DNA of 25,324 bases, from positions 1 through 25,324 of the forward strand of contig JBBFMJ010000001.1 of NCBI GenBank assembly GCA_037478515.1, read 5' to 3'. Position numbers and translations under genes: made by a program. The notes beneath the pieces were generated by a model, which saw only the letters and a list, made by a program, of their open reading frames with translations, had not been told where the DNA came from and did no database searches. Below, in pieces: positions 1,775 to 25,105 of the stretch. Every line of letters begins with the position of its first letter. Position 1 is the first letter of the stretch. The DNA comes from Thermoanaerobaculia bacterium (lineage in GTDB: Bacteria; Acidobacteriota; Thermoanaerobaculia; UBA2201).

Positions 1775-1782
1775 GGGGAGAT

Positions 1783-2940: not shown

Positions 2941-3335
2941 TTACTCCACCTATTGTCTGGAGAGAAAAAGCACAAAAATATCGTATGGAGGCAGGGAAAT
3001 GTAAAAAATGTGGAAAGATTTTGTTTCCACCAAGACTCATTTGTCCAAAATGTGGGGCAAAAGAATTTGAAACTATAAATTTGCCCTTAGAAGGAAAAAT
3101 TTTGTCTTGGACAGTCATACATACAGGCCACCCTGCTTTTTCAGATCTTCAACCCTATGGAATTTTAATTGTTGAACTTATAGAGGATGTAAAACTTTTA
3201 ATGCCCTTTGCAGATTTTACAAAAGAGGATTTAAAAATTGGAAATAAAGTAAAGATTGAATTTAGAAAGATTCAAGAAGGTGGCGAATCTGGTGTAATTG
3301 CCTATGGGTATAAAGCAGTCCCATGTTTAGAATAG
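2937..3335 (+). CDS. DUF35-family Zn-ribbon/OB-fold protein (scaffold of the thiolase/HMGCS complex)
   Basis: CKKCG..FPPR..CPKCG zinc ribbon followed by an OB fold ([38 protein letters not shown]). Start reassigned from 2877 to ATG 2937: ATGA overlap with the thiolase stop and SD GGAGGT at 2925-2930. Confidence 0.92.
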
Positions 3336-13235: not shown

Positions 13236-13572
13236 TTTTAATTCTTATAAATTTAACACATTTTTTTTATAAAAAGCAAATGGATTTTCTGGAGAATTTA
13301 AAATAGAAATGATTGAAGAATTATGATATTTAAATTTTCTATTAATAAAGCACAAAGTAAATTAAAAAAAATTTTGAATTTAAAAATTTAATAAGCAAAT
13401 GAGAAGACGAAAAAACTTGTAATTTTTTAGTTCAATTTTAAATTTTCATTTATACCTAAAATTGATGAAAAAATTTATTTTTTTTCTCTCGAAAAATTTT
13501 AATATTTTACTTTTTGAGCATATTACAATAAAGGAATAAAATCAATTATTTCTTGCCTTCTTCTAAATTGCT

Positions 13573-13616
13573 TTGTGAAAAAAAGCACTTGACAAAGAAT
13601 TTTTTTCATATAAAAT
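13573..13616 (+). promoter_or_regulatory. Promoter of the redox operon (TTGACA-16-TAAAAT) with an adjoining Rex/CRP-spaced GTG-N8-CAC site
   Basis: TTGACA 13589-13594, TAAAAT 13611-13616; TTGTGAA-AAAA-AGCACTT at 13573-13590 overlaps the start of the -35 box. Confidence 0.6.
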
Positions 13617-13625
13617 ATTTTGGAT

Positions 13626-14801
13626 ATGAAAAGCGTAATTTATCCCAACCTATCCCAGTTAGTAAAAAAGTATGGTAAGTTTGATGGTCGTCTCTGTTAT
13701 AACTGTGGAACCTGCACAGTTTCCTGTCCTATGGCAGACGAGACCACTTCTTTTCCAAGAAGGCCTATTCAAATGGTCCATGTGGGGGAGAAAGATAAAT
13801 TAATATCTATGGTTGAGCCATGGATCTGTCACTGGTGTGGGGACTGCTCAGCCAATTGTCCCCAGAAAGCAGAACCAGGGGAATCGATGAATACCATCAG
13901 AAAATACCTCTCCTCTGTTTATGACTGGACTGGGATTTCCTCAATTTTTAATAAATACTGGATTTTTAAAATTGGGCTTTATCTTTTTTCCATTGCTTTA
14001 ATCTTTGGATTGATTGCCTATTATCACATAAAAGAAGTGGGTATCTCTTTTTCTGACCTATTAAAAATGACCCCTTCGGAGATGAGTGATTCAAATTTAG
14101 GCCATGTCTTTGGAACAACTAAAATAATGTTTTATTTTACCTATGCTTTCTTCCTTTTGCCTTTAATTATACTCATAACCAACGGGATGAGGATGTGGTA
14201 TTTCACAATGAAAAGGAATAGTGCCCTTAAAATTCCCTTCTCCCTTTACCTTTCAGAACTTAAAAATTTCTTAATCCTTGGACTTACCCAGAAAAAATTC
14301 AAAGAATGCAAGGAAAAGAGTATGTGGACAAGGCACGTAACCCTTTTTGCTGGCTTTCTTTTGATTTCAATAATTGTATTTTTCTTTTTGAAATTTTTCC
14401 AGACCGATGCCATTTATCCCATCTACCATCCTCAAAGATGGCTTGGCTACATTGCTACAATCCTGATGCTTTATGGAAGTACTGCTATGATATTAGGGAG
14501 AATAACAAAGAAGGAAGAGATACACAAAAAGAGCGATTTTTCTGATTGGTCCCTTCCAATTTTATGTTTTCTTGTGGCTTTAAGCGGAATACTTATCCAT
14601 ATCTTTAGATATGTAAAAATGGAAAAGGCATCCCACTATATGTTTCTTGCTCATATTTTGATTTTAGCCCCGTTGATGCTCAAAGAACTTCCCTTTGGAA
14701 AGCTTGCCCACCTCCTCTACCATCCTCTTGGTCTTTACTTTAAAGGGGTAAAAGACAGAGCCATTAAGATGGAAGAAGAAAAAGAAGCAAAGGTTGCCTA
14801 A
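13626..14801 (+). CDS. qmoC: QmoC-like protein: HdrC-like 2x[4Fe-4S] domain plus NarI-like transmembrane (heme b) domain
   Basis: CYNCGTCTVSCP and CHWCGDCSANCP; several TM helices; YHPQRWLGY and PFGKLAH, which I recognise from QmoC; His pair in the last helix (LAH...KLAH). Start at ATG 13626 or TTG 13620. Confidence 0.8.
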   Translation: MKSVIYPNLSQLVKKYGKFDGRLCYNCGTCTVSCPMADETTSFPRRPIQMVHVGEKDKLISMVEPWICHWCGDCSANCPQKAEPGESMNTIRKYLSSVYDWTGISSIFNKYWIFKIGLYLFSIALIFGLIAYYHIKEVGISFSDLLKMTPSEMSDSNLGHVFGTTKIMFYFTYAFFLLPLIILITNGMRMWYFTMKRNSALKIPFSLYLSELKNFLILGLTQKKFKECKEKSMWTRHVTLFAGFLLISIIVFFFLKFFQTDAIYPIYHPQRWLGYIATILMLYGSTAMILGRITKKEEIHKKSDFSDWSLPILCFLVALSGILIHIFRYVKMEKASHYMFLAHILILAPLMLKELPFGKLAHLLYHPLGLYFKGVKDRAIKMEEEKEAKVA

Positions 14802-14828
14802 AATTTGAAATAAGGAGGGATATTAAAT

Positions 14829-15698
14829 ATGATTGAACAAAAGGTTGGAGCAGCAATGATAGTGGGTGGAGGGATTGGGGGAATGCAGGCAGCCCTAGAC
14901 CTGGCTGAATCAGGAATAAAGGTCTATATTGTGGAAAAGGACTCAGCCATTGGTGGAGTTATGGCTATGCTGGATAAAACCTTCCCCACCAATGACTGTG
15001 CTATGTGTACTATGGCTCCCCGTCTTGTTTCAATTGGAAGGCATAAGGATATTGAAGTTATTTCCATGGCATCCATTGAAAGGGTTGAAGGGGAAAAGGG
15101 AAATTTTAAAATAAGGATTAAAAAGAATCCAAGATATGTGGATGAAGAAAAGTGCACTGGCTGTGGCAGTTGTATTGAAAACTGCCCTGTCTATTTTAAA
15201 GTCCAGCCCTTAAAAATAGAAAGGACAAAACTGGATCCCAAATTTGAAAAGGTAAAGGAAATTGTAGCCAAACATAAGAACAGAAAAGGATTCCTGATGC
15301 CCATACTTCAGGAAATAAATGCCACCTATTATTACCTTCCAGAAAATGCTTTAAGATATGTGGCTGAAGAGACAGGCACACCTTTAATAAATATTATGAG
15401 AATAGCAACCTTTTACAGTGCCTTCAGCATAACCCCTAGGGGAAAGAATTTAATAAATGTATGCACCGGAACTGCTTGCTATGTGAAGGGAGCAGATCGT
15501 CTGATGGAAAAGTTTCAGGAAGTTTTGGATATTCCGGAAGGGGGAACCACAAAAGATATGCTCTTTACTTTAAAATCAGTTCGCTGCATTGGTTGTTGTG
15601 GTCTGGCTCCTGCAATAATGGTCAATGATACTGTCTATGGAAAACTTCTCCCCAAGGATGTGCCTGACATAATTAAAAAATACAAGGAGGCTTCATAA
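14829..15698 (+). CDS. Fusion: N-terminal HdrA fragment (FAD Rossmann start plus half a ferredoxin) and NuoE/HndA-like [2Fe-2S] domain
   Basis: Residues 1-121: IVGGGIGGMQAALDLA, EK...IGG.MA.LDKTFPTNDCAMC, PRYVDEEKCTGCGSCIENCPV. Residues ~136-289: LMPILQEIN..Y.YLP, ATFYSAFS..PRGK..INVCTGTACYVKG, VRCIGCCGLAP. SD AGGAGG upstream. Confidence 0.9.
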   Translation: MIEQKVGAAMIVGGGIGGMQAALDLAESGIKVYIVEKDSAIGGVMAMLDKTFPTNDCAMCTMAPRLVSIGRHKDIEVISMASIERVEGEKGNFKIRIKKNPRYVDEEKCTGCGSCIENCPVYFKVQPLKIERTKLDPKFEKVKEIVAKHKNRKGFLMPILQEINATYYYLPENALRYVAEETGTPLINIMRIATFYSAFSITPRGKNLINVCTGTACYVKGADRLMEKFQEVLDIPEGGTTKDMLFTLKSVRCIGCCGLAPAIMVNDTVYGKLLPKDVPDIIKKYKEAS

Positions 15699-15699
15699 T

Positions 15700-16083
15700 A
15701 TGCCAAAGCTAACCCTTGAAGATTTAAAGAAAAAAAGAGAAGAGGCAAGGTCTAAACTTTATTTAAGAGATGGAGAATTCAGAGGGAAAGTAATTGTCCA
15801 TATGGGAACCTGTGGAATTGCAGCAGGGGCAAGGGAAATAGTGGAACAATTTCTTGAAGAGGTGGAAAAAAACAATGCCAGAGACATTCAAATAACCACT
15901 TCCGGGTGTGCTGGTTTGTGCTCAAAGGAACCTATGGCAACGGTAGAGATAAAAGGTGCAGCTCCAGTAAAATACATAACCCTTAGCAGAGATAAAGTCA
16001 AAAAGATTTTTAAAGAACATATATTGGAAGGAAAAATTGTAGCTGAATATGCCCTTGGTGTGGGCTCTGAAAAAGGAGGTTAG
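15700..16083 (+). CDS. Thioredoxin-like ferredoxin, HndB/HydD-like
   Basis: VHMGTCGIAAGAR and TSGCAGLCSKEP; lies between the NuoE-like and NuoF-like genes, as hndB does in hndABCD. Confidence 0.85.
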   Translation: MPKLTLEDLKKKREEARSKLYLRDGEFRGKVIVHMGTCGIAAGAREIVEQFLEEVEKNNARDIQITTSGCAGLCSKEPMATVEIKGAAPVKYITLSRDKVKKIFKEHILEGKIVAEYALGVGSEKGG

Positions 16084-16086
16084 AAT

Positions 16087-17979
16087 ATGGCTACAAGAAG
16101 AATAGAACTTATGCTTTGTACTGGGACAGGTTGTGTGGCGGGGGGTGCCTTTAGAATAAAGGATGCCCTGGAGAAGGAAATAAAAAAACACAACCTTCAA
16201 AATGAAGTTTCTGTGGTTATAACTGGTTGTAATGGCTTTTGTGGGCAGGGTCCTATAATGGTTGTAAAACCAGACGATATTTTTTATGGTTTTTTAAATG
16301 AGCAGGAAATAGGGTATCTGGTGGAGGAACACCTTTTAAAAGGCAGGCCTGTAAAAAAATTTATGTTTACGCCCCCAGAAAAGAAGGAGCCCATTAAACT
16401 TTTGAGCGAAATTCCCTTCTTCCAGAAACAGATGCTTATTGTTTTAAGAAATAAAGGAATCATTGATCCGGAAAACATTGAAGAGTATATTGCCAGAGAT
16501 GGTTATGCTGCCCTGGAAAAGGTTCTAACCTCAATGAAGCCAGAAGAAGTCATAGAAGAGATAAAAAAATCTGGATTGAGGGGAAGGGGTGGTGCTGGAT
16601 TTCCCACGGGCCAGAAATGGGAAGTTTGTTTCAAACAGAAGGTTAAACCAAAATATTTAATCTGTAATTGTGATGAGGGAGATCCCGGCGCTTATATGGA
16701 CAGGTCTGTCTTTGAAACAGATCCCCATTCTGTAATTGAAGGTATGATAATTGCTTCCTACGCCTGTGATATAGATCAGGCATTTATTTATATAAGAACA
16801 GAATATCCCCTGGCAGTGCAGAGAGCAGCCAAGGCAATTCAGCAGGCAAAGGAATATGGACTTTTAGGGAAAAATATTTTGGGAACAAATTTTAGTCTGG
16901 ACATTGAAATAAGGGAAGGTTCAGGTGCCTTTGTATGTGGAGAAACCACTTCCCTGCAGCATTCCATTGAAGGTAAAAACCCAGAACCCAGGCAGAGACC
17001 TCCCAGGACTTCTGAAAAGGGCTTATGGGATCAACCCACAGTGGTAAATAATGTGGAAACCCTGGCAAATGTACCTGTTATCATTTTAAGGGGTGGTGAC
17101 TGGTATGCCAGCATTGGCACTGAAAAAAGCAAAGGGACTAAAATATTTTCTCTTGTAGGAAAGGTAAATAACACGGGCCTTGTGGAAGTTCCTATGGGTA
17201 TAACTTTGAGGGAAATGATTTATGATATAGGTGGTGGAATTCCAAAGGGGAAAAAATTTAAAGCAGTTCAAACGGGTGGTCCTTCTGGTGGCTGTATCCC
17301 AGAAAAATATCTGGATACACCTGTGGATTTTGAAACTTTAACTTCCCTGGGTTCAATGATGGGTTCTGGTGGTATGATTGTAATGGACGAAGATACTTGC
17401 ATGGTGGATGTAGCAAAATATTTTATACAATTTACCAATGATGAGTCCTGTGGAAAATGCACCATCTGCAGGGAAGGTTCAGGGGCTTTACTGGAGGTTT
17501 TAACAAGGATTACAGAAGGAAAAGGCAAGGAAAGAGATATTGAATATTTAGAAGAACTCTGTGCAGCCATAATTGATGGATCCCTCTGTGGTCTGGGAAA
17601 CAGTTTGCCCTATCCAGTTTTAACTACTCTTAAATATTTCAAAGAAGAATATGAAGCCCATATTAAAGAGAAAGCGTGCCCTGCCAGATCCTGTAAAAGT
17701 TTAATTAAATACTGGATTGATCCAGACAGGTGCGTGGGCTGTCTATTATGTATGAAAAACTGTCCCACCAATGCCATATCAGGGAAAACAAAATTTATCC
17801 ATACTATAAATTATGAATTATGTACAAAATGTGGAAACTGTTTTGATGTCTGCCCTGAAAAAGTAGGGGCAGTTAAAAAACTAACAGGTACTGAACCTGA
17901 AAAAGTGGTCTATTTAAAGGAGCCAGTTGCAGTGGGGGATTGGAAAAAACAAAAACAAGAGGAGGGAAAAAATGATTAA
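16087..17979 (+). CDS. NuoF/HndC/HydB-like NAD(P)H-binding flavoprotein, long form with extra FeS domains
   Basis: N-terminal Trx-like CTGTGC...GCNGFC; SGLRGRGGAGFPTG; CNCDEGDPGAYMDR; GAFVCGETTSL; NNVETLAN; GGPSGG; SCGKCTICREG/SLCGLG; EDTC and H...K.CPARSC site; C-terminal CVGCLLCMKNCP and CTKCGNCFDVCP. Confidence 0.93.
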   Translation: MATRRIELMLCTGTGCVAGGAFRIKDALEKEIKKHNLQNEVSVVITGCNGFCGQGPIMVVKPDDIFYGFLNEQEIGYLVEEHLLKGRPVKKFMFTPPEKKEPIKLLSEIPFFQKQMLIVLRNKGIIDPENIEEYIARDGYAALEKVLTSMKPEEVIEEIKKSGLRGRGGAGFPTGQKWEVCFKQKVKPKYLICNCDEGDPGAYMDRSVFETDPHSVIEGMIIASYACDIDQAFIYIRTEYPLAVQRAAKAIQQAKEYGLLGKNILGTNFSLDIEIREGSGAFVCGETTSLQHSIEGKNPEPRQRPPRTSEKGLWDQPTVVNNVETLANVPVIILRGGDWYASIGTEKSKGTKIFSLVGKVNNTGLVEVPMGITLREMIYDIGGGIPKGKKFKAVQTGGPSGGCIPEKYLDTPVDFETLTSLGSMMGSGGMIVMDEDTCMVDVAKYFIQFTNDESCGKCTICREGSGALLEVLTRITEGKGKERDIEYLEELCAAIIDGSLCGLGNSLPYPVLTTLKYFKEEYEAHIKEKACPARSCKSLIKYWIDPDRCVGCLLCMKNCPTNAISGKTKFIHTINYELCTKCGNCFDVCPEKVGAVKKLTGTEPEKVVYLKEPVAVGDWKKQKQEEGKND

Positions 17980-20900: not shown

Positions 20901-21220
20901 TCCAGGCACAGGCATCGGCAGCAAGGGCAGCAACTATTCTTTCAAAGGACAAATTAGAGCTGGAAGCCACAATTTCAAAAGTCATTGATGAAAACTGCGA
21001 TGGTTGTGCTTACTGTGTGGATACCTGTCCTTACAAAGCCATTACCCTTCTGGAATATGTTTTTCAGGGCAGCATAAAGAAGACCGTGGAAGCCAATGAA
21101 AGCTTATGCAAGGGCTGTGGGACCTGTATGGCAACCTGCCCAAAGAAAGGTATTCTTGTAAAGGGCTTTACCTTGGAGCAGCTGCAGGCACAGGTCTTTG
21201 CAGCACTTGAACAATCTTAA
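17972..21220 (+). CDS. Fusion: NuoG/HndD-like N-terminal FeS region, remainder of HdrA copy 1, and a complete second HdrA/QmoB-like module
   Basis: Start reassigned from 17927 to ATG 17972 (SD AGGAGG). Res 1-178: PTLCY, GACRLCVVE, ASC, CINCGLCIRMC, CWACGACNFICP. Res ~192 onward: RFNRGLSSRA...YPQAVP, ENC...CGICAEVC, VGSIILAPGF, TSIEFERILSASGP, FIQCVGSR, CSSVCCMYATKEA, AGP...PKDIPETV. Then IGVFVCHCG.NI, ACTPRTHEPLF, NIRDQ, ALVIGGGIAG, MIQCVGSR, CSRICC, EAH.KLRPV, CDGCAYCVDTCP, CKGCGTCMATCP. Confidence 0.92.
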   Translation: MIKIIVDGKEVEIEGGQKLIKAVEAAGVKVPTLCYHKALSPYGACRLCVVEVGAKGRSKSVQASCTYPASDGLEVLTNTERVRRVRKIALELLLARCPSSETIQLLAAEYGVFEPRIEKKNEDCINCGLCIRMCEERMGRKVLGFTGRGPRKKLEPPFSAKNPACWACGACNFICPVGKKVTDLTTDLEFKPIEDRFNRGLSSRAVAHILYPQAVPAKAVLDPENCIRLNYDACGICAEVCEPKAINFEDKGKELEINVGSIILAPGFDPYKPEEKEDLGYKKFPNVVTSIEFERILSASGPYCGEVKRPSDGKHPEKIAFIQCVGSREKERNWCSSVCCMYATKEAIMAKEHAGESLKCDIYFMDVRAYSKGFEQYYDSAKKLGINYIRCRVPKLEENPENKNIIVTYLGEDDRKLKAEYDMVILSIGLCPPSDAKKIAEKFGIDLNEFGFASSSTFKPVETKREGIYIAGPFTEPKDIPETVMQATASASKALSVLADVKGQLIKPMVFPEEVDVTGQEPRIGVFVCHCGTNIAGVVNVPEVVEYAKTLPNVVFATNTIYTCSNDTQELIKQKIKEYNLNRIIVSACTPRTHEPLFRNTVKEAGLNPYLFEMANIRDQNSWVHMQFPDAATKKAKDLVRMAVAKARLLEPLQNSYIDIIKNALVIGGGIAGMKASMELANQGYKVYLLEKTGELGGNLRNIHYLLNGENPKEELEKIIKEVKENKNIEIYFNAKIEEVEGSVGRYKTKIKSNGNEYVFEHGVVIIAMGGKEYEPKEYMYGEDGRVLTQRQLEEKIAKKEIKLPETVVMIQCVGSREGERPSCSRICCGIAIKNALKIKEISPKTNVFILYRDVRAYGFKEKYYTLARDKGVTFIRWDIEDGKPAVYKNNGKIYVDVKDKILNMEHTIPADLVVLSTGVMPNEDHKEVAQHFKVPVTAEGYFLEAHMKLRPVDFATDGVFLAGLAHFPKTIDESIIQAQASAARAATILSKDKLELEATISKVIDENCDGCAYCVDTCPYKAITLLEYVFQGSIKKTVEANESLCKGCGTCMATCPKKGILVKGFTLEQLQAQVFAALEQS

Positions 21221-21236
21221 ATTAAAGAGGTGAAAT

Positions 21237-21653
21237 ATGTCTGAGAACTTTGAACCCTTCATAATTGCTTTTTGTTGTAACTGGTGTTCCTATGCAGCAG
21301 CAGACCTGGCAGGGGTCTCCAGGTTTCAGTATCCCCCTAATATGAGGCTTATTAGAGTTATGTGTTCTGGTATGGTGCATCCAAACCTTATAATTGATGC
21401 CTTGACAAGGGGTGCTGACGGCGTAATTGTTTGTGGATGCCACCCAGGGGACTGCCATTATCTTTCAGGAAATCTGGTTGCAAAGAAAAGGGAAGAGGGT
21501 ATCTATTTAATGCTGGATGACTTGGGGATTGAAAGGGACAGGTTCCGCTTGGAATGGATTTCTGCTGCAGAAGGAATTAAATTTTCTCAGGTTATGAAGG
21601 AATTCACCGAGCAAATAAGAAAACTGGGTCCCAGCCCTTATAGAACATTTTAA
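21237..21653 (+). CDS. mvhD: Methyl-viologen-reducing hydrogenase delta subunit ([2Fe-2S], MvhD/FlpD family)
   Basis: AFCCNWCSYAAAD, RLIRVMCSG, GADGV..CGCHPGDCHY, RFRLEWISAAEG. Confidence 0.95.
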   Translation: MSENFEPFIIAFCCNWCSYAAADLAGVSRFQYPPNMRLIRVMCSGMVHPNLIIDALTRGADGVIVCGCHPGDCHYLSGNLVAKKREEGIYLMLDDLGIERDRFRLEWISAAEGIKFSQVMKEFTEQIRKLGPSPYRTF

Positions 21654-21662
21654 GGAGTGCTT

Positions 21663-21854
21663 ATGAACCTCTCCAAAATATTTGAAGGAAAAAAATTTAT
21701 GTGGGATGGGGGGGAGTATAAAGATGAAAAGGAAGCCACAGAAGTGATGAATAAATACAAAAATGATGGTTTTGAGACCTATCTTTATAAGGAAAATGAT
21801 AAATATTATGTTTTTACAAGAAAAGTGGTATCAGAAATTAAGGTTGAAAGCTGA
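21663..21854 (+). CDS. Small hypothetical protein (63 aa) inside the Hdr-Mvh operon
   Basis: SD AAGGAG at 21652-21657, 5 nt before ATG 21663 (alternative GTG 21657). KKFMWDG...Y...GFE.....YYVFTRKVV; fills the gap between mvhD and mvhG; no Cys. Confidence 0.8.
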   Translation: MNLSKIFEGKKFMWDGGEYKDEKEATEVMNKYKNDGFETYLYKENDKYYVFTRKVVSEIKVES

Positions 21855-21859
21855 TGCCC

Positions 21860-21888
21860 TTGAAAATGTTTTAAAAAAAGCTTAATAT
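21860..21888 (+). promoter_or_regulatory. Candidate internal promoter upstream of mvhG
   Basis: TTGAAA (21860-21865), 17 nt, TAATAT (21883-21888); SD AAGGAGGT before ATG 21934. The region is AT-rich, so a chance match is possible. Confidence 0.45.
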
Positions 21889-21891
21889 AAA

Positions 21892-21911
21892 TTGAGAGTT
21901 GGGACTCTCAA
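21892..21911. repeat. Perfect 8-bp hairpin in the mvhG leader
   Basis: TTGAGAGT-TGGG-ACTCTCAA; no plus-strand U tract follows. Confidence 0.65.
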
Positions 21912-21933
21912 AATAAATAAATAAGGAGGTTTT

Positions 21934-22860
21934 ATGGCAGTAAAAGTTGCTAATGAATGTTTTGCCATCTGTCAGGGATGCGAAATTACCATCCTGGACA
22001 TCGGAGAAACCCTTCTGGAACTCCTTCCCCAGCTTGAATTTGTACATATGCCTGTTCTGATGGATCACAAACTCTTTGGTCAGACCGGTGAAAAAGATAA
22101 GATGGAGATACCTGAAGCAGATGTGGGAATCATCTCAGGAGGAGTGAGAAATGAGGAAAACAAAGAAGTTCTAAAGGAAATGAGAGCCAAATGCAAGACC
22201 CTTATTGCCCTTGGTTCCTGTGCCTGTTTTGGTGGGATTCCAGCCCTGGCAAATCAGTTTCAACTGGCTGAACTTTATGAAAAGGTTTACAGGCAATCCA
22301 AAAGTACTGATCCCGCCGAAACTCCTTCAAAAGAGGTACCCCCTTTGACAGATAGAGTTTATGCTTTGGATGAGATTGTAAAAGTAGATGTATATATCCC
22401 TGGCTGTCCAACTCAACCTGAAATTATTCTGGAAGCTTTAACTGCCCTTCTTCAGGGCAAGCCCTTCTCCCTGCCAGAAAGATCTGTGTGCGATGATTGT
22501 CCTACCCAGAGGCAGAAGAAAGCAGATATCTCCTTGAGAAGACCCCTGGAAAATGTAACAGATATTACAAAAAAAGTGGAAGAATCCAGATGTTTTATGG
22601 AACTGGGATATTTATGCCTGGGTCCTGTGACCAAGTCAGGTTGTGGTGGTCATGAGAAAGTTCCAAGGTGTATAAAAGGATATATGCCTTGCAGAGGTTG
22701 TTTTGGTCCTATCAGAAAGGGTGCAAATCCACTGGTGGAAATGATTGGTGCCTTATCATCCATTGGGCTTGATCCAAACCTGATCCCAGACAGGGCAGCA
22801 ACAATTCAAAGGTATATTGGTGCCCACAACAGGTTAAGACCACTACCAAAAAGACCATAA
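21934..22860 (+). CDS. mvhG: [NiFe]-hydrogenase small subunit, group 3c (MvhG-like)
   Basis: CQGCEITILD, ALGSCACFGGIP, YIPGCP, VCDDCP, RCF....LCLGPVT..GC, C....MPCRGCFGP; no Tat signal. Confidence 0.92.
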   Translation: MAVKVANECFAICQGCEITILDIGETLLELLPQLEFVHMPVLMDHKLFGQTGEKDKMEIPEADVGIISGGVRNEENKEVLKEMRAKCKTLIALGSCACFGGIPALANQFQLAELYEKVYRQSKSTDPAETPSKEVPPLTDRVYALDEIVKVDVYIPGCPTQPEIILEALTALLQGKPFSLPERSVCDDCPTQRQKKADISLRRPLENVTDITKKVEESRCFMELGYLCLGPVTKSGCGGHEKVPRCIKGYMPCRGCFGPIRKGANPLVEMIGALSSIGLDPNLIPDRAATIQRYIGAHNRLRPLPKRP

Positions 22861-22875
22861 TTTAAGGAGGAAAAA

Positions 22876-24318
22876 ATGAAAAAAATAGTTATACAACCCG
22901 TATCAAGGATTGAAGGACATGCAAAGGTAACAATCCAGCTGGACGATGCTGGAAATGTCCAGGACACCTGGGTAAATGTAATAGAACTAAGGGGCTTTGA
23001 AAAGTTCTGTATTGGAAAGCCCGTAGAGGAACTTCCCAGGATTGTGACTTCCATCTGTGGTGTCTGCCCCTGGTCTCACCATCTTGCCTCATCCAAGGCA
23101 TGCGATGCTGTCTTTGGTGTGCAGCCCCCACCTGCAGGTAGAAAATTAAGGGAACTCTGCAATTCCATTGCCTATACTGAAGAACACACTCTCCATTTTT
23201 ATTTTCTGGCAGGCGCAGATTTTGTAATGGGTCCTGATGAGGATTATTCTATAAGAAATGTAATTGGTATTGCCCAGAAATATCCAGACATAGGTAAGAA
23301 AGTTGTAAGGTGCAGGCATCTTGCAGCAGTTATGCTGGACATTGTTTCAGGAAAAGCAATCCACCCTGTCACTTCTGTTCCAGGGGGAGTAAGCAAACCT
23401 TTAAGGCAAGAAGAAGTTGAAAAATTAAAACCTATGGCAGAGGAAATGCTGGAATTTGCAAAATTTTCCATTGATTTTGCCAAGAAAAATATCTTCCCCA
23501 AATTTCTGGATGCAGTAAAAACCATTGGGGTAATTGAAACAGGTTTTCTGGGAACCGTAAAGGATGATGGTGCTTTGGACCTCTATGATGGGAAACTAAG
23601 GATGATGACCCCCGATGGGAAGTATGAGGACTTTACTTATGAACAGTATACTGATTTTATTGCTGAGCATATTGAGCCCTGGTCCTATTTGAAGTTTCCC
23701 TATATGAAGAAAGCAGGTGGTTTTTCTATGGACCTGGCAAATCCCAAAGGAATTTACAGAACCAATACCCTTGCCAGAATAAATGTATGTGATTATATTC
23801 CAACCCCACTTGCCCAAGCAGAACTGGAAGAATTCAGAAAGAATTTTGGAAGACCCTGTCAGCTTACACTCCTTTATAACTGGGCACGCCTTATAGAACT
23901 TTTATACAATGCAGAAATGGTTGTAAAACTTTTAAATGACCCAGAAATTACTTCCACTGATACCAGGGTTCCAGTAAAGCCCAGAGCAGCAAGGGGTATT
24001 GGCTGTGTGGAAGCCCCCAGAGGAACCCTCATCCACGATTATGAAACCGATGCCAATGGGATTGTTACAAATGTTAATTTAATTGTAGGAACTACCCACA
24101 ACAATGCTCCCATAAATATGTCTGTTAAGAAAACTGCCAAAGAACTCATAAAAGATGGAAAATATGATCAGGGAATTTTAAACCGCTTAGAGATGGCAAT
24201 TAGAGCCTATGACCCCTGCCTCTCCTGTGCTACACATAAGCTGGATGGTACCCTTCCTGTTAAAGTTGAAATAATTGACAAAAACTTCAAAAAAATAGAT
24301 ACCTTGGTAAATTATTAA
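22876..24318 (+). CDS. mvhA: [NiFe]-hydrogenase large subunit, group 3c (MvhA-like)
   Basis: PVSRIEGHAK, ELRGFEKF, L1 SICGVCPWSHH, EAPRGTLIHDY, TTHN, L2 RAYDPCLSCATH followed by a 26-aa cleavable C-terminal extension. Cys, not Sec. Confidence 0.94.
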   Translation: MKKIVIQPVSRIEGHAKVTIQLDDAGNVQDTWVNVIELRGFEKFCIGKPVEELPRIVTSICGVCPWSHHLASSKACDAVFGVQPPPAGRKLRELCNSIAYTEEHTLHFYFLAGADFVMGPDEDYSIRNVIGIAQKYPDIGKKVVRCRHLAAVMLDIVSGKAIHPVTSVPGGVSKPLRQEEVEKLKPMAEEMLEFAKFSIDFAKKNIFPKFLDAVKTIGVIETGFLGTVKDDGALDLYDGKLRMMTPDGKYEDFTYEQYTDFIAEHIEPWSYLKFPYMKKAGGFSMDLANPKGIYRTNTLARINVCDYIPTPLAQAELEEFRKNFGRPCQLTLLYNWARLIELLYNAEMVVKLLNDPEITSTDTRVPVKPRAARGIGCVEAPRGTLIHDYETDANGIVTNVNLIVGTTHNNAPINMSVKKTAKELIKDGKYDQGILNRLEMAIRAYDPCLSCATHKLDGTLPVKVEIIDKNFKKIDTLVNY

Positions 24319-24324
24319 AAATTT

Positions 24325-24360
24325 AAGGCACGGCTTAAAAAATAAGCCGTGCCTTTTCTT
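24325..24360 (+). terminator. Intrinsic terminator-like hairpin after mvhA
   Basis: AAGGCACGGCTTA-AAAAA-TAAGCCGTGCCTT: perfect 13-bp stem with a 5-nt loop; its end runs into TTTTCTT. Confidence 0.85.
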
Positions 24361-24852
24361 ATGGAAAATTACCCATCTTACTGTCTTAAGAAAAATTTAG
24401 TTTTAGGTTGTGGAAATATCTTTTTTGGCGATGATGGTTTTGGTCCTGAATTTATAAAGTACCTGGAAGAAAGTGGATTGATACCAGAGGATACAATTGC
24501 CATAAATGCAGGTTTAAGCATAAGAGAAATTTTATTTAACATTGTTTTAAGTGATAAAAAGCCAGAAAGGATAGTTATAATAGATGCTGTAGATTTAGGG
24601 GAAGAGCCAGGAGAGATTTTTGAGGTAGACCTGGATGAGATTCCCAAAATTAAGATAGATGATTTTTCTATGCACCAGATGCCCACTTCCAATCTTTTAA
24701 AGGAATTAAAAGAGAAAGGAAATGTGGAGGTAAGGGTTTTATCAATTCAGGTAGAAAATATCCCCGAAGAGATAAGCCCTGGAATATCAGAAAAACTAAA
24801 AAATTCTTATGAAAAAATGTATCAAAAATTAGTAAAAATACTGGAGGAATAA
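24361..24852 (+). CDS. Hydrogenase maturation endopeptidase (HyaD/HycI/FrhD family)
   Basis: LVLGCGNIFFGDDGFG, IVIIDAVD.G..PG, SMHQ. ATG 24361 preferred because GTG 24349 lies inside the terminator stem. Confidence 0.92.
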   Translation: MENYPSYCLKKNLVLGCGNIFFGDDGFGPEFIKYLEESGLIPEDTIAINAGLSIREILFNIVLSDKKPERIVIIDAVDLGEEPGEIFEVDLDEIPKIKIDDFSMHQMPTSNLLKELKEKGNVEVRVLSIQVENIPEEISPGISEKLKNSYEKMYQKLVKILEE

Positions 24853-24853
24853 T

Positions 24854-25105
24854 ATGCACGAGTGGAAAATAACAGAATCAATTATTGAGGAAATTTTAAA
24901 GCAAGCAGAAGCCAGTGGGATAAAAAAAGTTAATAAGGTCATTCTTTCCATTGGGCAGGACTCAGATTTAACCCCTGATGTTATAAATTTTTGTTTTGAT
25001 AATTTAAAAAACAATTTTCCTATAAATAGAGACCTGGATCTGGAAATAAAAATGAGGGAGGGAATGGGCGGAGTAATAATTGAGGAGATTGAAGGAGAAG
25101 ATTAG
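24854..25105 (+). CDS. hypA: HypA-like nickel metallochaperone lacking the zinc-finger domain (83 aa)
   Basis: N-terminal MHE Ni motif, V..V.L.IG..S...P....F.F, L.LEI, then directly GGVIIEEIEGED; no CxxC pair. Confidence 0.8.
   Translation: MHEWKITESIIEEILKQAEASGIKKVNKVILSIGQDSDLTPDVINFCFDNLKNNFPINRDLDLEIKMREGMGGVIIEEIEGED

What the first reader, a model, noticed from the sequence alone, without database searches (positions are those of the whole stretch)
13626..25105. Membrane-anchored Qmo/Hdr - Hnd-type diaphorase - Mvh [NiFe]-hydrogenase hybrid complex
Seen: one co-directional operon with QmoC-like anchor, tandem HdrA, a NuoE/Trx-Fd/NuoF/NuoG-N cassette in hndABCD order, MvhD, MvhG, MvhA and maturases. 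No HdrB (CCG domain), AprAB or H-cluster domain is in the window. Known: MvhAGD-HdrABC bifurcates H2 electrons to heterodisulfide and ferredoxin; QmoC links HdrA-like subunits to the quinone pool; HydABC/HndABCD-type modules couple NAD(P)H and ferredoxin. Inference: these parts form a single complex connecting H2, NAD(P)(H), quinone and possibly ferredoxin, with quinone replacing the heterodisulfide as high-potential acceptor. I know of no characterised complex with this composition but could not search for one.
Basis: partly seen in the sequence, partly recalled or inferred. Interest (0 to 1): 0.92.

Follow-up and report, generated by a model that had tools for sequence, protein, structure and literature searches.

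The report
Membrane-anchored Bfu–HdrA–Mvh hydrogenase operon
One operon encodes an uncharacterised but widely conserved hydrogenase machine in which an NADH/ferredoxin module is spliced into the middle of a heterodisulfide-reductase flavoprotein and a membrane cytochrome-like subunit takes the place of the usual soluble disulfide reductase, so H2, NAD(H), ferredoxin and probably quinone appear to be wired together in one enzyme.

Summary
Window 13626-25105 is one co-directional cluster: QmoC-like membrane Fe-S protein, NuoE/ferredoxin/NuoF/NuoG-N cassette, tandem HdrA, MvhD, MvhG, MvhA, endopeptidase and a short HypA.

Three points were missed.
- The first HdrA is split inside its inserted ferredoxin domain. 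Its first ~125 residues are fused to NuoE and the rest is fused behind NuoG-N.
- The cassette is a bona fide Bfu (HydBC-type) core. Its NuoF matches the bifurcating NiFe-HydABCSL HydB over the full length, E 1e-237.
- A conserved 63-aa ORF precedes mvhG.

The same gene order recurs in eight other loci, including Bacteroidales and Fidelibacterota. More distant variants keep the split HdrA::Bfu core but carry HdrC+HdrB where QmoC sits, or MetVF where MvhGA sits. So QmoC occupies the slot of the high-potential acceptor module.

No aprA, dsrA, dsrC or second HdrA was found in the 82.6%-complete MAG. No paper describing this composition turned up.

Best reading: a membrane-anchored H2:menaquinone oxidoreductase. 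Its HdrA flavin would send the low-potential electron into Bfu to make NADH and reduced ferredoxin. Direction and quinone use are inferred, not shown. It is a new variant built from known modules.

The parts
13626..14801 (+). QmoC-like membrane subunit (391 aa): an N-terminal HdrC-like 2x[4Fe-4S] domain followed by six predicted TM helices.
   Evidence: NF038018 qmoC scores 185.5 bits (cut-off 300), full length; TIGR03290 HdrC E 9e-13. The best PDB hits are HdrC chains over residues 8-95. KD hydropathy and the AF2 model both give 6 TM helices. Eight invariant Cys and invariant His237/343/362 across 6 orthologues.
14829..15203 (+). N-terminal fragment of HdrA-1 (residues 1-125 of the 289-aa protein): the FAD-binding GxGxxG, the KTFPTNDCAMC motif and the first CxxCxxCxxxCP of the inserted ferredoxin domain.
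   Evidence: Residues 8-121 align to HdrA 145-258 of 5odc_A and to 153-267 of 8rvu_a. Cys60 corresponds to HdrA Cys197. C57, C60, C109, C112, C115 and C119 are invariant in 8 orthologues.
15231..15698 (+). BfuC/NuoE-type [2Fe-2S] domain, fused to the HdrA-1 fragment.
   Evidence: PF01257 E 1e-47. The best PDB hit is HydC 8a6t_C at E 5e-48, then 7t2r_C at 9e-41.
15700..16083 (+). 127-aa thioredoxin-like ferredoxin in the HndB position, with an invariant HxxxC...CxxxC pattern.
   Evidence: NF041612 2Fe-2S ferredoxin E 4e-10. H34, C38, C70 and C74 are invariant in 8 orthologues.
16087..17979 (+). BfuB/HydB (NuoF-like): N-terminal [2Fe-2S] domain, FMN/NAD(H) site, [4Fe-4S] and a C-terminal 2x[4Fe-4S] domain.
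   Evidence: Pfam Complex1_51K, NADH_4Fe-4S and Fer4. Full-length matches to 7t2r_B (E 1e-237) and to HydB of 7q4v and 8a6t. The His/Cys of the B2/Zn site are conserved except for one Cys to Thr change, as in 8a6t_B.
17972..18505 (+). Short BfuA (NuoG-N, residues 1-178 of the 1082-aa protein): a [2Fe-2S] cluster plus a 2x[4Fe-4S] ferredoxin-like domain. The His-ligated cluster motif is absent.
   Evidence: PF13510, Fer4_21 and Fer4_Nqo3. The best PDB hit is the 247-aa BfuA 9mqx_A, E 2e-38. The 'ELLLARCP' stretch replaces the usual H/C motif in all orthologues.
18509..19516 (+). Remainder of HdrA-1: the second half of the inserted ferredoxin domain and the thioredoxin-reductase fold with its [4Fe-4S] site. 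It has no N-terminal domain and no C-terminal ferredoxin domain.
   Evidence: Residues 164-445 align to HdrA 245-510 of 5odc_A. C226/234/237/241 and C324/335/339/340 are invariant. An unsplit relative (L006, 1010 aa) aligns continuously across the split point.
19529..21217 (+). HdrA-2: N-terminal [4Fe-4S] domain, FAD fold without the inserted ferredoxin domain or the Cys197 motif, and a C-terminal 2x[4Fe-4S] ferredoxin domain.
   Evidence: Residues 520-754 align to HdrA 2-237 and residues 912-1074 to HdrA 487-645 of 5odc_A. The KTFPTNDCSIC motif is replaced. The Cys sets are invariant. The inserted domain is visibly absent from the sequence.
21237..21653 (+). MvhD, the [2Fe-2S] connector subunit.
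   Evidence: PF02662 E 9e-55. 5odc_D E 4e-50 and 8rvu_F E 1e-50.
21663..21854 (+). Conserved 63-aa protein of unknown function, always directly upstream of mvhG.
   Evidence: No Pfam hit. Present in 7 loci, with 11 invariant residues. AF2 pLDDT 89.7, with a beta-beta-alpha-beta-beta topology. No significant fold match.
21934..22860 (+). MvhG, a full-length small subunit.
   Evidence: PF01058. 5odc_E E 2e-58 over residues 3-282. The short HydS 7t2r_E matches only the first 180 residues.
22876..24318 (+). MvhA, a group 3c-type [NiFe] large subunit with RIEGH, CGVCxxxH and DPCLSCATH motifs and a C-terminal extension for processing.
   Evidence: NF041785 VhuA E 6e-140. 5odc_F E 1e-125 and 7t2r_D E 6e-122.
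24325..24355 (.). 13-bp-stem hairpin between the mvhA stop and the endopeptidase start.
   Evidence: Terminator-like scan, 7 GC pairs. Its function was not tested.
24349..24852 (+). FrhD/HycI-type hydrogenase maturation endopeptidase. The true start may be the ATG at 24361.
   Evidence: PF01750 E 5e-23; TIGR00130 frhD E 1e-35.
24854..25105 (+). Truncated HypA-like protein (83 aa): the Ni-binding N-terminus is present but the Zn-finger half is missing.
   Evidence: PF01155 matches profile positions 1-68 of 112. The HypA genes in L031 and L032 are 125 and 114 aa.

Best explanation
The operon encodes one multi-module, probably membrane-anchored [NiFe]-hydrogenase complex built around an asymmetric HdrA pseudo-dimer.

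Architecture:
- HdrA-1 supplies an FAD fold, the Cys197-equivalent and the inserted ferredoxin domain.
- Only one complete bifurcation unit can therefore form.

Three modules plug into this unit:
1. MvhA-MvhG-MvhD deliver or accept H2 electrons through the C-terminal ferredoxin domain of HdrA-2.
2. A BfuCBA core (NuoE/F/G-N type, with FMN, NAD(H) and ferredoxin sites) is spliced into the inserted ferredoxin domain of HdrA-1. This is the outlet that feeds free ferredoxin in methanogen Mvh-Hdr.
3. A QmoC-like subunit, an HdrC-like 2x[4Fe-4S] domain fused to a six-helix cytochrome-b-like membrane domain, occupies the place of HdrC+HdrB and connects the high-potential branch to the menaquinone pool.

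Most likely net reaction, in the uptake direction: H2 (-414 mV) is oxidised. At the HdrA FAD, one electron goes downhill to menaquinone (about -74 mV). The other is pushed to low potential into Bfu, where NAD+ and ferredoxin are reduced.

What is shown and what is inferred:
- Shown: composition, domain order, the split and fusions, conserved cofactor ligands, conserved synteny, and modular exchange in relatives.
- Inferred: assembly with QmoC, haem and quinone use, electron routes (by homology to 5ODC and 7T2R), stoichiometry and physiological direction.
For: Fusions and split:
- HdrA 145-258 is fused to NuoE and HdrA 245-510 lies behind NuoG-N.
- An unsplit relative aligns across the junction.
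- More than 120 clusters at 64-100% identity share the HdrA'-NuoE fusion. About ten 50%-identity clusters match over the full length.

The same site is a recurrent NAD(P)H-module insertion point:
- Relatives L006 and L009 carry a GltD/NfnB-like module there.
- This has been published for ANME-1 HdrA and for HdrL (PMC9012536, PMC2702500).

Complementary loss in the two HdrA halves:
- Cys60, the Cys197 equivalent, is present only in HdrA-1.
- This matches the heterodimer logic of PMC9012536.

Bfu identity:
- NuoF vs 7t2r_B, E 1e-237 over the full length.
- NuoE vs HydC 8a6t_C.
- NuoG-N vs short BfuA 9mqx_A.

Mvh identity.

Synteny, including QmoC-like and the 63-aa ORF:
- Conserved in L012-L015 and L031-L034.
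- The qmoC stop and hdrA' start overlap or lie 1-2 nt apart in 5 of 7 loci.

Module swapping:
- L041 is HdrC-HdrB-HdrA::Bfu-MvhDGA.
- L042 is HdrC-HdrB-HdrA::Bfu-MvhD-MetVF.
- QmoC-like is absent from the unsplit or HdrL-type loci, which have HdrC/HdrB or MetVF instead.

Complex prediction, QmoC 6-380 with the HdrA-1 pieces:
- Verdict was weak support: ipSAE 0.52, best control 0.00.
- In the tool's calibration the mark was reached by 58 of 80 solved complexes and 2 of 110 mismatches. At 0.60 or below, only 7 of the 80 passed, along with both mismatches.
- The runs agree in at least 92% of contacts and the partner pLDDT is at least 72.
- An HdrC-HdrA complex is solved, so the pass may reflect likeness.

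Genome context:
- This is the only HdrA, MvhD or QmoC found in the MAG.
- A MenA hit sits at its cut-off next to a multihaem cytochrome c.
- Several 2-oxoacid:ferredoxin oxidoreductases are present.
- A separate group 3b hydrogenase is present.

Thermodynamics, from established potentials quoted in PMC9304861: MK at -74 mV is at least as good a high-potential acceptor as heterodisulfide at -140 mV.
Against: - There is no biochemical or expression evidence of any kind.
- QmoC-like scores below the NCBIfam QmoC cut-off (185 vs 300 bits). Only 3 His are invariant, whereas a NarI-type dihaem b needs 4.
- The AF2 model of QmoC-like is poor (pLDDT 56). Fold matches to NarI and EtfD are not significant (E above 0.3).
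- Menaquinone synthesis is not demonstrated. MenA is borderline, MenB is below its cut-off and there is no MqnA, in an 82.6%-complete MAG.
- Feeding an already low-potential electron into a second bifurcating module looks redundant.
- Most homologous operons carry the DRTGG/CBS-HATPase/PHP regulator cassette that I recall, from my own knowledge, being described in HydABC hydrogenase operons (not checked here). One is preceded by a gene with the Pfam domains of the redox-sensing repressor Rex. The Rex-type gene, and the cassette if that recollection holds, would fit NADH-driven H2 evolution better than uptake.
- It is unresolved which CxxCxxCxxxCP motif pairs with the second half of the inserted ferredoxin domain: the one in the 289-aa protein or the last one of NuoG-N.
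Confidence: 0.5

Rival explanations
1. The complex has the same composition but runs physiologically in the H2-evolving (confurcating) direction. NADH plus reduced ferredoxin enter through Bfu, as in HydABC or NiFe-HydABCSL. Electrons pass through HdrA and MvhD to MvhAG and leave as H2. QmoC links this flow to the quinone pool, for example by co-oxidising menaquinol or by bleeding electrons to menaquinone.
For: - BfuB is about 60% identical to HydB of reversible H2-evolving enzymes.
- Most orthologous operons contain the DRTGG/CBS-HATPase/PHP/HATPase regulator genes. One is preceded by a gene with the Pfam domains of the redox-sensing repressor Rex.
- Named carriers are Bacteroidales and Fidelibacterota, which I know to be mostly fermenters.
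- The MAG holds several ferredoxin-reducing 2-oxoacid oxidoreductases.
Against: - NiFe-HydABCSL achieves NADH+Fd to H2 without HdrA or a membrane subunit, so the extra modules would be unexplained.
- My estimate from standard potentials: oxidising menaquinol (-74 mV) to H2 with 1 NADH and 2 reduced ferredoxin per 2 MKH2 gives a mean donor potential near -240 mV. That is unfavourable unless H2 is below about 1 Pa.
- The MAG already has a group 3b hydrogenase.
Confidence: 0.25
2. The QmoC-like protein is not part of the complex, or is not a quinone-reactive cytochrome. Bfu-HdrA-Mvh would then be a soluble H2:NAD+/ferredoxin enzyme. Its high-potential acceptor would be an unidentified thiol/disulfide or protein handled elsewhere, for example by the membrane Fe-S/CCG protein on contig C215.
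For: - QmoC-like is below the QmoC family cut-off.
- Structural support is weak.
- The genome encodes a membrane-bound Fer4+2xCCG protein (C215) and a LutA-like CCG protein (C84).
- Sister architectures do use HdrC+HdrB.
Against: - QmoC-like is adjacent and often translationally coupled in 7 of 7 loci with the flank available, across at least three lineages.
- It sits exactly where HdrC-HdrB sit in L041 and L042, and its N-terminal domain is homologous to those HdrC proteins.
- The C215 and C84 genes are on other contigs with unrelated neighbours.
- No DsrC was found.
Confidence: 0.15
3. The HdrA flavins do not bifurcate here. The tandem HdrA/MvhD would act only as an electron wire between Mvh and Bfu, giving a NiFe-Bfu hydrogenase with a long connector. 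QmoC would merely tether the complex to the membrane.
For: HdrA-2 has lost the KTFPTNDCxxC motif and the inserted domain, which shows that parts of the module are degenerate.
Against: - All Fe-S ligands and both FAD motifs are invariant across orthologues.
- The complementary retention of Cys197 and the N-terminal domain is the pattern expected for one functional bifurcation unit (PMC9012536).
- QmoC retains all 8 cluster Cys.
Confidence: 0.1

Closest known systems
MvhAGD-HdrABC of methanogens (PDB 5ODC and related entries)
   Same: - MvhA, MvhG, MvhD and HdrA are clear homologues (E 1e-125, 2e-58, 4e-50, 1e-165).
- The same cluster ligands and FAD fold are present.
- The expected logic is the same: H2 to MvhD to the HdrA FAD, which splits electrons into a high- and a low-potential branch.
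   Different: - There is no HdrB. HdrC is replaced by a QmoC-like fusion with a membrane domain.
- HdrA is a fused, asymmetric double HdrA whose first copy is split.
- The inserted ferredoxin domain is wired to a BfuCBA module instead of free ferredoxin.
- The host is bacterial, with no methanogenesis.
QmoABC of sulfate reducers
   Same: - Two HdrA-like flavoproteins, an MvhD-type element and a QmoC-type subunit (HdrC-like domain plus membrane domain).
- QmoC is the best-scoring curated family for the first gene.
   Different: - The score is below the equivalog cut-off.
- No aprBA, sat or dsr genes were found in the genome.
- Extra Bfu and Mvh hydrogenase modules are present.
- HdrA-1 is split.
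Bfu family, especially NiFe-HydABCSL of Acetomicrobium mobile (PDB 7T2R; PMC9304861)
   Same: - BfuB, BfuC and the N-terminal part of BfuA are present, with all domains.
- The [NiFe] large subunit is equally close to 7t2r_D.
- NAD(H) and ferredoxin are expected as substrates.
   Different: - BfuA is short and lacks the His-ligated cluster.
- The small subunit is the long Mvh type.
- HdrA-HdrA-MvhD is interposed between BfuA and the hydrogenase.
- A membrane subunit is present.
Class II benzoyl-CoA reductase BamBCDEFGHI ('Bam-Bfu')
   Same: - It is the only described system found here that combines an HdrA module, an MvhD-like subunit and a BfuABC module.
- Two bifurcation sites in series and a quinone-directed high-potential electron have been proposed for it (PMC9304861).
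   Different: - It has a tungsten BamBC catalytic module instead of a hydrogenase.
- No HdrA split, Bfu fusion or QmoC-like subunit was described in what I read.
HdrL and HdrA with an NfnB-like insertion (D. autotrophicum; ANME-1 HdrA9-11)
   Same: - An NAD(P)H-binding flavoprotein module interrupts the inserted ferredoxin domain of HdrA at the same position.
- Relatives L006 and L009 of the window's double HdrA have exactly this.
   Different: - There the insert is a single GltD/NfnB-like domain within one polypeptide.
- Here it is a four-gene Bfu cassette that splits the gene.
[quoted passage not shown]
   Same: - A fused double HdrA with MvhD.
- Locus L042 shows the same split HdrA::Bfu core combined with HdrC, HdrB and MetVF next to CODH/ACS genes.
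   Different: - The window has MvhGA instead of MetVF.
- The window has QmoC-like instead of HdrCB.
HndABCD [FeFe] hydrogenase
   Different: - There is no H-cluster subunit in the window or the genome.
- The NuoG-like part is fused to HdrA.

Membership tests
Bfu family (BfuBC bifurcating core; PMC9304861) | BfuB has a NuoF-type FMN/NADH domain, an N-terminal [2Fe-2S] domain and a C-terminal 2x[4Fe-4S] domain. | tested here: met
   Pfam domains. Full-length alignment to 7t2r_B, 7q4v_B and 8a6t_B, E 1e-237 to 1e-222.
Bfu family (BfuBC bifurcating core; PMC9304861) | The His and Cys ligands of the B2 [2Fe-2S]/Zn site are conserved in BfuB. | tested here: inconclusive
   His and three Cys are conserved. 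One Cys position is Thr, as in the bifurcating HydB 8a6t_B. The residue numbering in the paper could not be matched exactly.
Bfu family (BfuBC bifurcating core; PMC9304861) | A BfuC (NuoE-type [2Fe-2S]) and a BfuA N-terminal cluster domain are encoded alongside BfuB. | tested here: met
   BfuA is the short form and lacks the His-ligated cluster motif.
Bfu family (BfuBC bifurcating core; PMC9304861) | Coupled NAD(H)/ferredoxin/third-substrate activity. | not testable with these tools
   Needs an enzyme assay.
Group 3c [NiFe]-hydrogenase (MvhAGD) | The large subunit has N- and C-terminal CxxC NiFe motifs and is closest to MvhA/VhuA. | tested here: met
   NF041785 E 6e-140, below its cut-off of 800 bits. 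5odc_F E 1e-125. The motifs are visible in the alignment.
Group 3c [NiFe]-hydrogenase (MvhAGD) | A long MvhG small subunit and an MvhD [2Fe-2S] subunit are present. | tested here: met
Group 3c [NiFe]-hydrogenase (MvhAGD) | Association with HdrABC, the heterodisulfide-linked partner. | tested here: not met
   HdrA is present, but there is no HdrB or HdrC in the operon and no HdrB-like partner elsewhere.
HdrA (bifurcating flavoprotein of HdrABC) | A thioredoxin-reductase-type FAD fold with its [4Fe-4S] site (CxGSR...CxxxCC). | tested here: met
   Present in both copies, and invariant in 7 orthologues.
HdrA (bifurcating flavoprotein of HdrABC) | [quoted passage not shown] | tested here: not met
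   The features are distributed over three pieces. Cys197 and the inserted domain are in HdrA-1 (split). The N-terminal and C-terminal domains are in HdrA-2.
QmoC / QmoABC | An HdrC-like 2x[4Fe-4S] domain is fused to a multi-helix membrane domain. | tested here: met
QmoC / QmoABC | The protein reaches the curated QmoC equivalog score. | tested here: not met
   185.5 bits against a cut-off of 300.
QmoC / QmoABC | Two b haems (four His ligands) and quinone reactivity. | tested here: inconclusive
   Three invariant His and one semi-conserved His. The model is of low confidence, and the NarI and EtfD fold hits are not significant.
QmoC / QmoABC | Genomic or functional link to AprAB and dissimilatory sulfate reduction. 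| tested here: not met
   No aprA, dsrA or dsrC was found in the 82.6%-complete MAG.
HndABCD / HydABC [FeFe] hydrogenase | An H-cluster catalytic subunit. | tested here: not met
   PF02906 is absent from the window and the genome.

The most novel reading that the evidence does not exclude
The complex would be a membrane-bound 'double bifurcator'. An HdrA-type flavin site and a Bfu-type FMN/Fe-S site would be hard-wired in series through a split ferredoxin domain, coupling four redox pools (H2, menaquinone, NAD(H), ferredoxin) in one enzyme. It would belong to a wider, unrecognised family of HdrA::Bfu hybrid cores that exchange their high-potential module (QmoC or HdrCB) and their third-substrate module (MvhGA or MetVF) by horizontal transfer.
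Probability: 0.35. Interest if true: 0.9.

Novelty: new variant of a known kind. Interest (0 to 1): 0.72.

Why it matters
Electron bifurcation is how anaerobes make low-potential ferredoxin from weak reductants. Four enzyme families are known, and almost all characterised members are soluble.

- **A two-family hybrid.** This operon, and at least two sister architectures found here, physically fuse two of those families, HdrA and Bfu. In the window's version a quinone-type membrane subunit is added.
- **What it would show if the inferred wiring is right.** It would be a direct enzymatic link between cytoplasmic H2 oxidation, the respiratory quinone pool and the NADH and ferredoxin pools in uncultured sediment, digester and marine bacteria, including Bacteroidales and Fidelibacterota. 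It would also be a natural test case for two bifurcation sites working in series, as proposed but never shown for Bam-type benzoyl-CoA reductase.
- **A possible annotation error.** At least one MAG study annotates a bacterial group 3c hydrogenase simply as 'MvhADG/HdrABC' (PMC7509429). For clusters of the type described here, that label would misassign the acceptor.
- **A link to an open question.** The MetVF-linked variant may bear on the long-standing question of the electron donor and acceptor of Moorella-type methylene-THF reductases.

Tried and rejected
- **Sulfate-reduction partner.** No aprA, dsrA or dsrC was found in the MAG. A Qmo-Apr role is rejected for this genome, within 82.6% completeness.
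- **Hidden HdrB.** Only two CCG proteins exist, on unrelated contigs.
- **Rex operator upstream of the operon.** No match within 3 mismatches in 13236-13625. The window-wide count is not above chance.
- **Promoter and terminator scans.** Counts equal the shuffled expectation. Only the hairpin after mvhA is notable.
- **QmoC-like structure.** The AF2 model has pLDDT 56. Foldseek found no hit with E at or below 0.001, and the NarI and EtfD rows are leads only.
- **Small ORF.** No Pfam, PDB-sequence or significant fold match. Atlas neighbours are all 'hypothetical'.
- **Taxonomy.** Cluster look-ups and the Atlas gave no names. GlyS-beta gives only Thermoanaerobaculia at 42% as the nearest named relative, so the phylum is left open.
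- **Literature.** Seven full-text searches for QmoC/HdrA/NuoF/Mvh/Bfu combinations found no description of this architecture. Appel et al. 2021 (BBA), the most relevant review, is not in the searchable library.
- **Artefact or pseudogene.** The split HdrA is not an assembly artefact or pseudogene, given its conservation in more than 120 clusters. The Fidelibacterota locus L012 does look decayed: its NuoG-N gene stops at the HdrA junction.

Full report
**1. What is in the window**

The window is the whole longest contig (C1) of a MAG of 2.11 Mb in 418 contigs, 82.6% complete. Between 13626 and 25105 lie eleven co-directional ORFs. Most are separated by -8 to +27 nt. The two larger gaps are 79 nt before mvhG and 30 nt after mvhA, which holds a 13-bp-stem hairpin.

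Pfam and NCBIfam identify them as follows:
- a QmoC-like protein
- an HdrA-fragment/NuoE fusion
- a 127-aa thioredoxin-like ferredoxin
- a NuoF with extra N- and C-terminal Fe-S domains
- a 1082-aa NuoG-N/HdrA/HdrA fusion
- MvhD
- a 63-aa ORF without any family
- MvhG
- MvhA
- an FrhD/HycI-type endopeptidase
- an 83-aa HypA lacking its zinc-finger half

Upstream, 390 bp of AT-rich spacer separates the cluster from divergently transcribed, unrelated genes: a ParA-like ATPase, a Cys/Met PLP enzyme, an FAA hydrolase and DUF885.

**2. The split HdrA**

Alignment to the solved HdrA (5odc_A, 8rvu_a) gives the following map.

| Piece | Residues | Aligns to HdrA | Content |
|---|---|---|---|
| 289-aa protein | 8-121 | 145-258 | FAD GxGxxG, KTFPTNDCxxC motif, first CxxCxxCxxxCP of the inserted ferredoxin domain |
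| 289-aa protein | 135-289 | none | NuoE domain |
| 1082-aa protein | 1-178 | none | NuoG-N |
| 1082-aa protein | 164-445 | 245-510 | second half of the inserted ferredoxin domain and the rest of the FAD fold |
| 1082-aa protein | 520-754 | 2-237 | start of a second HdrA, including the N-terminal cluster domain |
| 1082-aa protein | 912-1074 | 487-645 | C-terminal ferredoxin domain |

An unsplit double HdrA from a Bacillota MAG (L006, 1010 aa) aligns to the two window pieces end to end. The overlap is only the 12-residue cluster motif. So a four-gene NuoE/ferredoxin/NuoF/NuoG-N cassette sits inside hdrA, within the inserted ferredoxin domain.

The two HdrA copies are complementary:
- HdrA-1 has the Cys197 equivalent (Cys60 of the 289-aa protein) and the inserted domain. 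It has no N-terminal domain and no C-terminal ferredoxin domain.
- HdrA-2 has the N-terminal and C-terminal domains. It has lost the Cys197 motif and the inserted domain.

This is the asymmetry that Chadwick et al. (PMC9012536) proposed for fused HdrAs forming a heterodimer-like unit with a single electron path. All expected cluster cysteines and both FAD motifs are invariant across seven orthologues.

**3. The cassette is a Bfu core**

- The NuoF-like protein aligns over its full length to HydB of the structurally characterised electron-bifurcating NiFe-HydABCSL (7t2r_B, E 1e-237). It also aligns to the [FeFe] HydABC enzymes (7q4v_B, 8a6t_B).
- These alignments include the N-terminal [2Fe-2S] domain, the C-terminal 2x[4Fe-4S] domain, and the His/Cys site that Schut et al. 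treat as diagnostic. One Cys is Thr, as in 8a6t_B (PMC9304861).
- The NuoE part is closest to HydC.
- NuoG-N is closest to a 247-aa short BfuA (9mqx_A).
- NuoG-N lacks the His-ligated cluster motif in every orthologue.
However, no H-cluster protein exists in the genome.

**4. The hydrogenase is a true Mvh type**

- MvhA vs 5odc_F: E 1e-125, with the NiFe motifs and a C-terminal processing extension.
- MvhG vs 5odc_E: E 2e-58 over the full length. The short HydS of 7T2R matches only the first 180 residues.
- MvhD vs 5odc_D: E 4e-50.

**5. The first gene**

Its residues 8-95 match HdrC chains. It carries two invariant four-Cys motifs. The remainder forms six hydrophobic helices, by hydropathy and in the AF2 model, with three invariant histidines.

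QmoC is the best curated family and aligns over the full length, but at 185 bits it is below the cut-off of 300. The AF2 model is poor (pLDDT 56). Foldseek gave only non-significant NarI and EtfD rows. I therefore call it QmoC-like, not QmoC.

**6. Conservation and distribution**

The HdrA'-NuoE fusion has more than 120 90%-identity clusters at 64-100% identity and 92-100% coverage (at least 98% for most) in the 5.8-billion-protein collection. Named members come from Bacteroidetes/Bacteroidales and Fidelibacterota. In the 50%-identity library, about ten representatives match over the full length.

Eight loci were fetched: L012-L015 and L031-L034. Seven of them show the same order:
- QmoC-like, HdrA'NuoE, ferredoxin, NuoF
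- a five-gene DRTGG/CBS-HATPase/DRTGG/PHP/HATPase regulator block (optional)
- NuoG'HdrA-HdrA, MvhD, small ORF, MvhG, MvhA, protease

Variations:
- In L031 the small ORF-MvhGA-protease block lies upstream of QmoC instead.
- In L034 the contig starts at the split hdrA, so its upstream flank is missing.
- The eighth locus, L012 (Fidelibacterota), keeps only the QmoC-like to NuoF part. Its NuoG-N gene is truncated at the HdrA junction.
- The QmoC stop and the next start overlap or are 1-2 nt apart in five of seven loci.

The distribution is patchy:
- 10 of 201 sampled genomes in the phylum of L012 have the full-length fusion.
- Only two or three of 301 in the window's own phylum have it.

The operon proteins are 60-70% identical to those of Bacteroidales and Fidelibacterota. 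The MAG's GlyS-beta, by contrast, finds nothing named above 42%, with Thermoanaerobaculia nearest. This suggests horizontal spread; it is an inference, and no tree was built.

**7. Modular relatives**

| Loci | Architecture | Calls |
|---|---|---|
| L005-L010 | Unsplit double HdrA + MvhD at 47-50% identity, in archaea and bacteria | 10, 11 |
| L006, L009 | A GltD/NfnB-like NAD(P)H module in one polypeptide at the same insertion site (the published HdrL / HdrA-NfnB type), with HdrC/HdrB or MetVF neighbours and no QmoC-like gene | 15, 109; papers in 23, 24 |
| L041 | HdrC, HdrB, canonical single HdrA split by NuoE-NuoF-NuoG-N, then MvhD-MvhG-MvhA | 113, 117 |
| L042 | HdrC, HdrB, split double HdrA::Bfu, MvhD, MetV, MetF, next to CODH/ACS genes | 114, 117 |

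The HdrC proteins of L041 and L042 are homologous to the N-terminal domain of the window's QmoC-like protein.

The HdrA::Bfu hybrid is therefore a reusable core. The gene slot upstream holds the high-potential module, either HdrCB or QmoC-like. The slot downstream of MvhD holds the third-substrate module, either MvhGA or MetVF.

**8. Genome context**

- tblastn finds no other HdrA, MvhD or QmoC-like gene in the MAG.
- No aprA, dsrA, dsrC or [FeFe] hydrogenase was found.
- The two CCG-domain proteins are a membrane Fer4-CCG protein at a contig edge (C215) and a LutA-like protein (C84).
- A UbiA-family gene reaches the MenA cut-off by 0.15 bits and lies next to a multihaem cytochrome c. MenB and MqnA were not found.
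- Four 2-oxoacid:ferredoxin oxidoreductase hits are present, along with a four-subunit group 3b-like hydrogenase, three further Bfu-type NuoF modules, hypCDEF and a Rex homologue.
- All absences are relative to 82.6% completeness.

**9. Complex prediction**

I folded QmoC-like residues 6-380 with the two HdrA-1 pieces and the HdrA-2 N-terminal domain.
- The verdict was weak support: ipSAE 0.52 against a best control of 0.00.
- In the tool's calibration, 58 of 80 solved complexes and 2 of 110 mismatches reached the mark. At 0.60 or below, only 7 of the 80 passed, along with both mismatches.
- The runs agree in at least 92% of contacts, and the partner pLDDT is at least 72.
- HdrC-HdrA complexes are solved, so this shows likeness to that interface rather than independent proof.

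**10. Mechanism**

By homology to 5ODC, as summarised in PMC9012536, the electron routes would be:
- H2 electrons enter through MvhA, MvhG and MvhD into the C-terminal ferredoxin domain and reach the FAD.
- The high-potential electron leaves through the [4Fe-4S] of the FAD fold to the HdrC-type clusters, here QmoC-like, and on to the membrane domain.
- The low-potential electron leaves through the hybrid N-domain/Cys197 cluster and the inserted ferredoxin domain. Here that domain continues directly into the BfuA clusters and the BfuBC core, which binds NAD(H) and ferredoxin.

The relevant potentials are H2 at -414 mV, menaquinone at about -74 mV and heterodisulfide at -140 mV (values quoted in PMC9304861). 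Menaquinone is thermodynamically at least as suitable as heterodisulfide. I therefore favour an H2:menaquinone oxidoreductase that co-produces NADH and reduced ferredoxin (confidence 0.5).

The main rival is the reverse, H2-evolving direction (0.25). The Rex-type gene upstream of L032 points that way. So would the regulator cassette, if my uncited recollection that it typifies HydABC operons is right. Against it, the extra modules would have no obvious role, and menaquinol oxidation to H2 is energetically poor.

Smaller rivals are that QmoC-like is not a quinone-reactive partner (0.15), or that HdrA acts only as a wire (0.1).

**11. Novelty**

Every module belongs to a known family. HdrA+Bfu co-occurrence is known from Bam-type benzoyl-CoA reductase, and NAD(P)H-module insertion into HdrA is known from HdrL and ANME-1.

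The following were not found in the searchable literature:
- the gene-splitting Bfu insertion
- its combination with Mvh and a QmoC-like membrane subunit
- the conserved 63-aa protein
- the existence of a swappable HdrA::Bfu core

Schut et al. note 17 BfuB clades without an assigned function. This system may lie among them, which I did not test. I rate it a new variant of a known kind, of high interest to anaerobic bioenergetics but resting entirely on sequence inference.

Noticed in passing
window 21663-21854 (+): A 63-aa ORF with no family. It is conserved directly upstream of mvhG in seven loci from several lineages. It folds confidently (pLDDT 89.7) as beta-beta-alpha-beta-beta, with only a weak SPOR/CwlC-like resemblance. 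It may be an unrecognised accessory subunit of this hydrogenase type.
   Followed up: partly
window 24854-25105 (+): The HypA-like gene is only 83 aa and lacks the zinc-binding C-terminal half. Orthologous loci have a 114-125-aa HypA. No other HypA or HypB was detected in the MAG by tblastn with the L032 queries.
   Followed up: partly
window 24325-24355: A perfect 13-bp-stem hairpin (7 GC pairs) lies between the mvhA stop and the endopeptidase gene. It overlaps the predicted GTG start, so the real start may be the ATG at 24361.
   Followed up: no
G000 contigs C32 (4636-10568), C19 (7777-13215), C52: The MAG carries three more Bfu-type NuoF modules. One follows 2-oxoacid:ferredoxin oxidoreductase alpha/beta/gamma genes (a 'Por-Bfu'-like cluster). 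One is a 1046-aa NuoF fusion next to a short BfuA and a gene whose N-terminal sequence looks like a glutamate-synthase-type FMN protein (by eye; no family search). The lineage seems to use Bfu cores as plug-in modules.
   Followed up: partly
G000 contig C20:4204-6929: The five-gene DRTGG/CBS-HATPase/DRTGG/PHP/HATPase regulator block lies inside the operon in Bacteroidales and other carriers. In this MAG it sits on a different contig, unlinked from any Bfu genes.
   Followed up: no
L041 (JGI 3300009008) and L042 (JGI 3300028916): Two sister architectures keep the same split HdrA::Bfu core but carry HdrC+HdrB upstream. L041 continues with MvhDGA. L042 continues with MvhD (apparently split by an in-frame stop, possibly selenocysteine), then MetV-MetF, next to CODH/ACS genes. 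L042 may be an NADH/ferredoxin-linked Moorella-type methylene-THF reductase.
   Followed up: partly
L012 (Fidelibacterota, CP070638.1) 13256-13936: In this complete genome the NuoG-N gene stops exactly at the HdrA junction, and no HdrA remainder, MvhD or MvhG follows. The HdrA'-NuoE fusion and the QmoC-like gene are intact. This is either a decayed or a re-purposed version.
   Followed up: no
window 722-3335 (+): An HMG-CoA-synthase-like gene, a thiolase and a DUF35/ChsH2 OB-fold gene lie in a row. This is the three-gene arrangement known from the archaeal acetoacetyl-CoA thiolase/HMG-CoA synthase complex, here in a bacterial MAG. It is followed by a carboxyltransferase.
   Followed up: no
G000 contig C61:5992-8150: The only MenA-like prenyltransferase, at the family cut-off, lies next to a 402-aa multihaem cytochrome c (PF13447). 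This hints at quinone-linked anaerobic respiration.
   Followed up: partly
whole MAG: GlyS-beta has close unnamed relatives at 65-93% identity. The nearest named relative is Thermoanaerobaculia at only 42%. The operon proteins, by contrast, are 60-70% identical to Bacteroidales and Fidelibacterota versions, which suggests horizontal transfer of the operon.
   Followed up: partly
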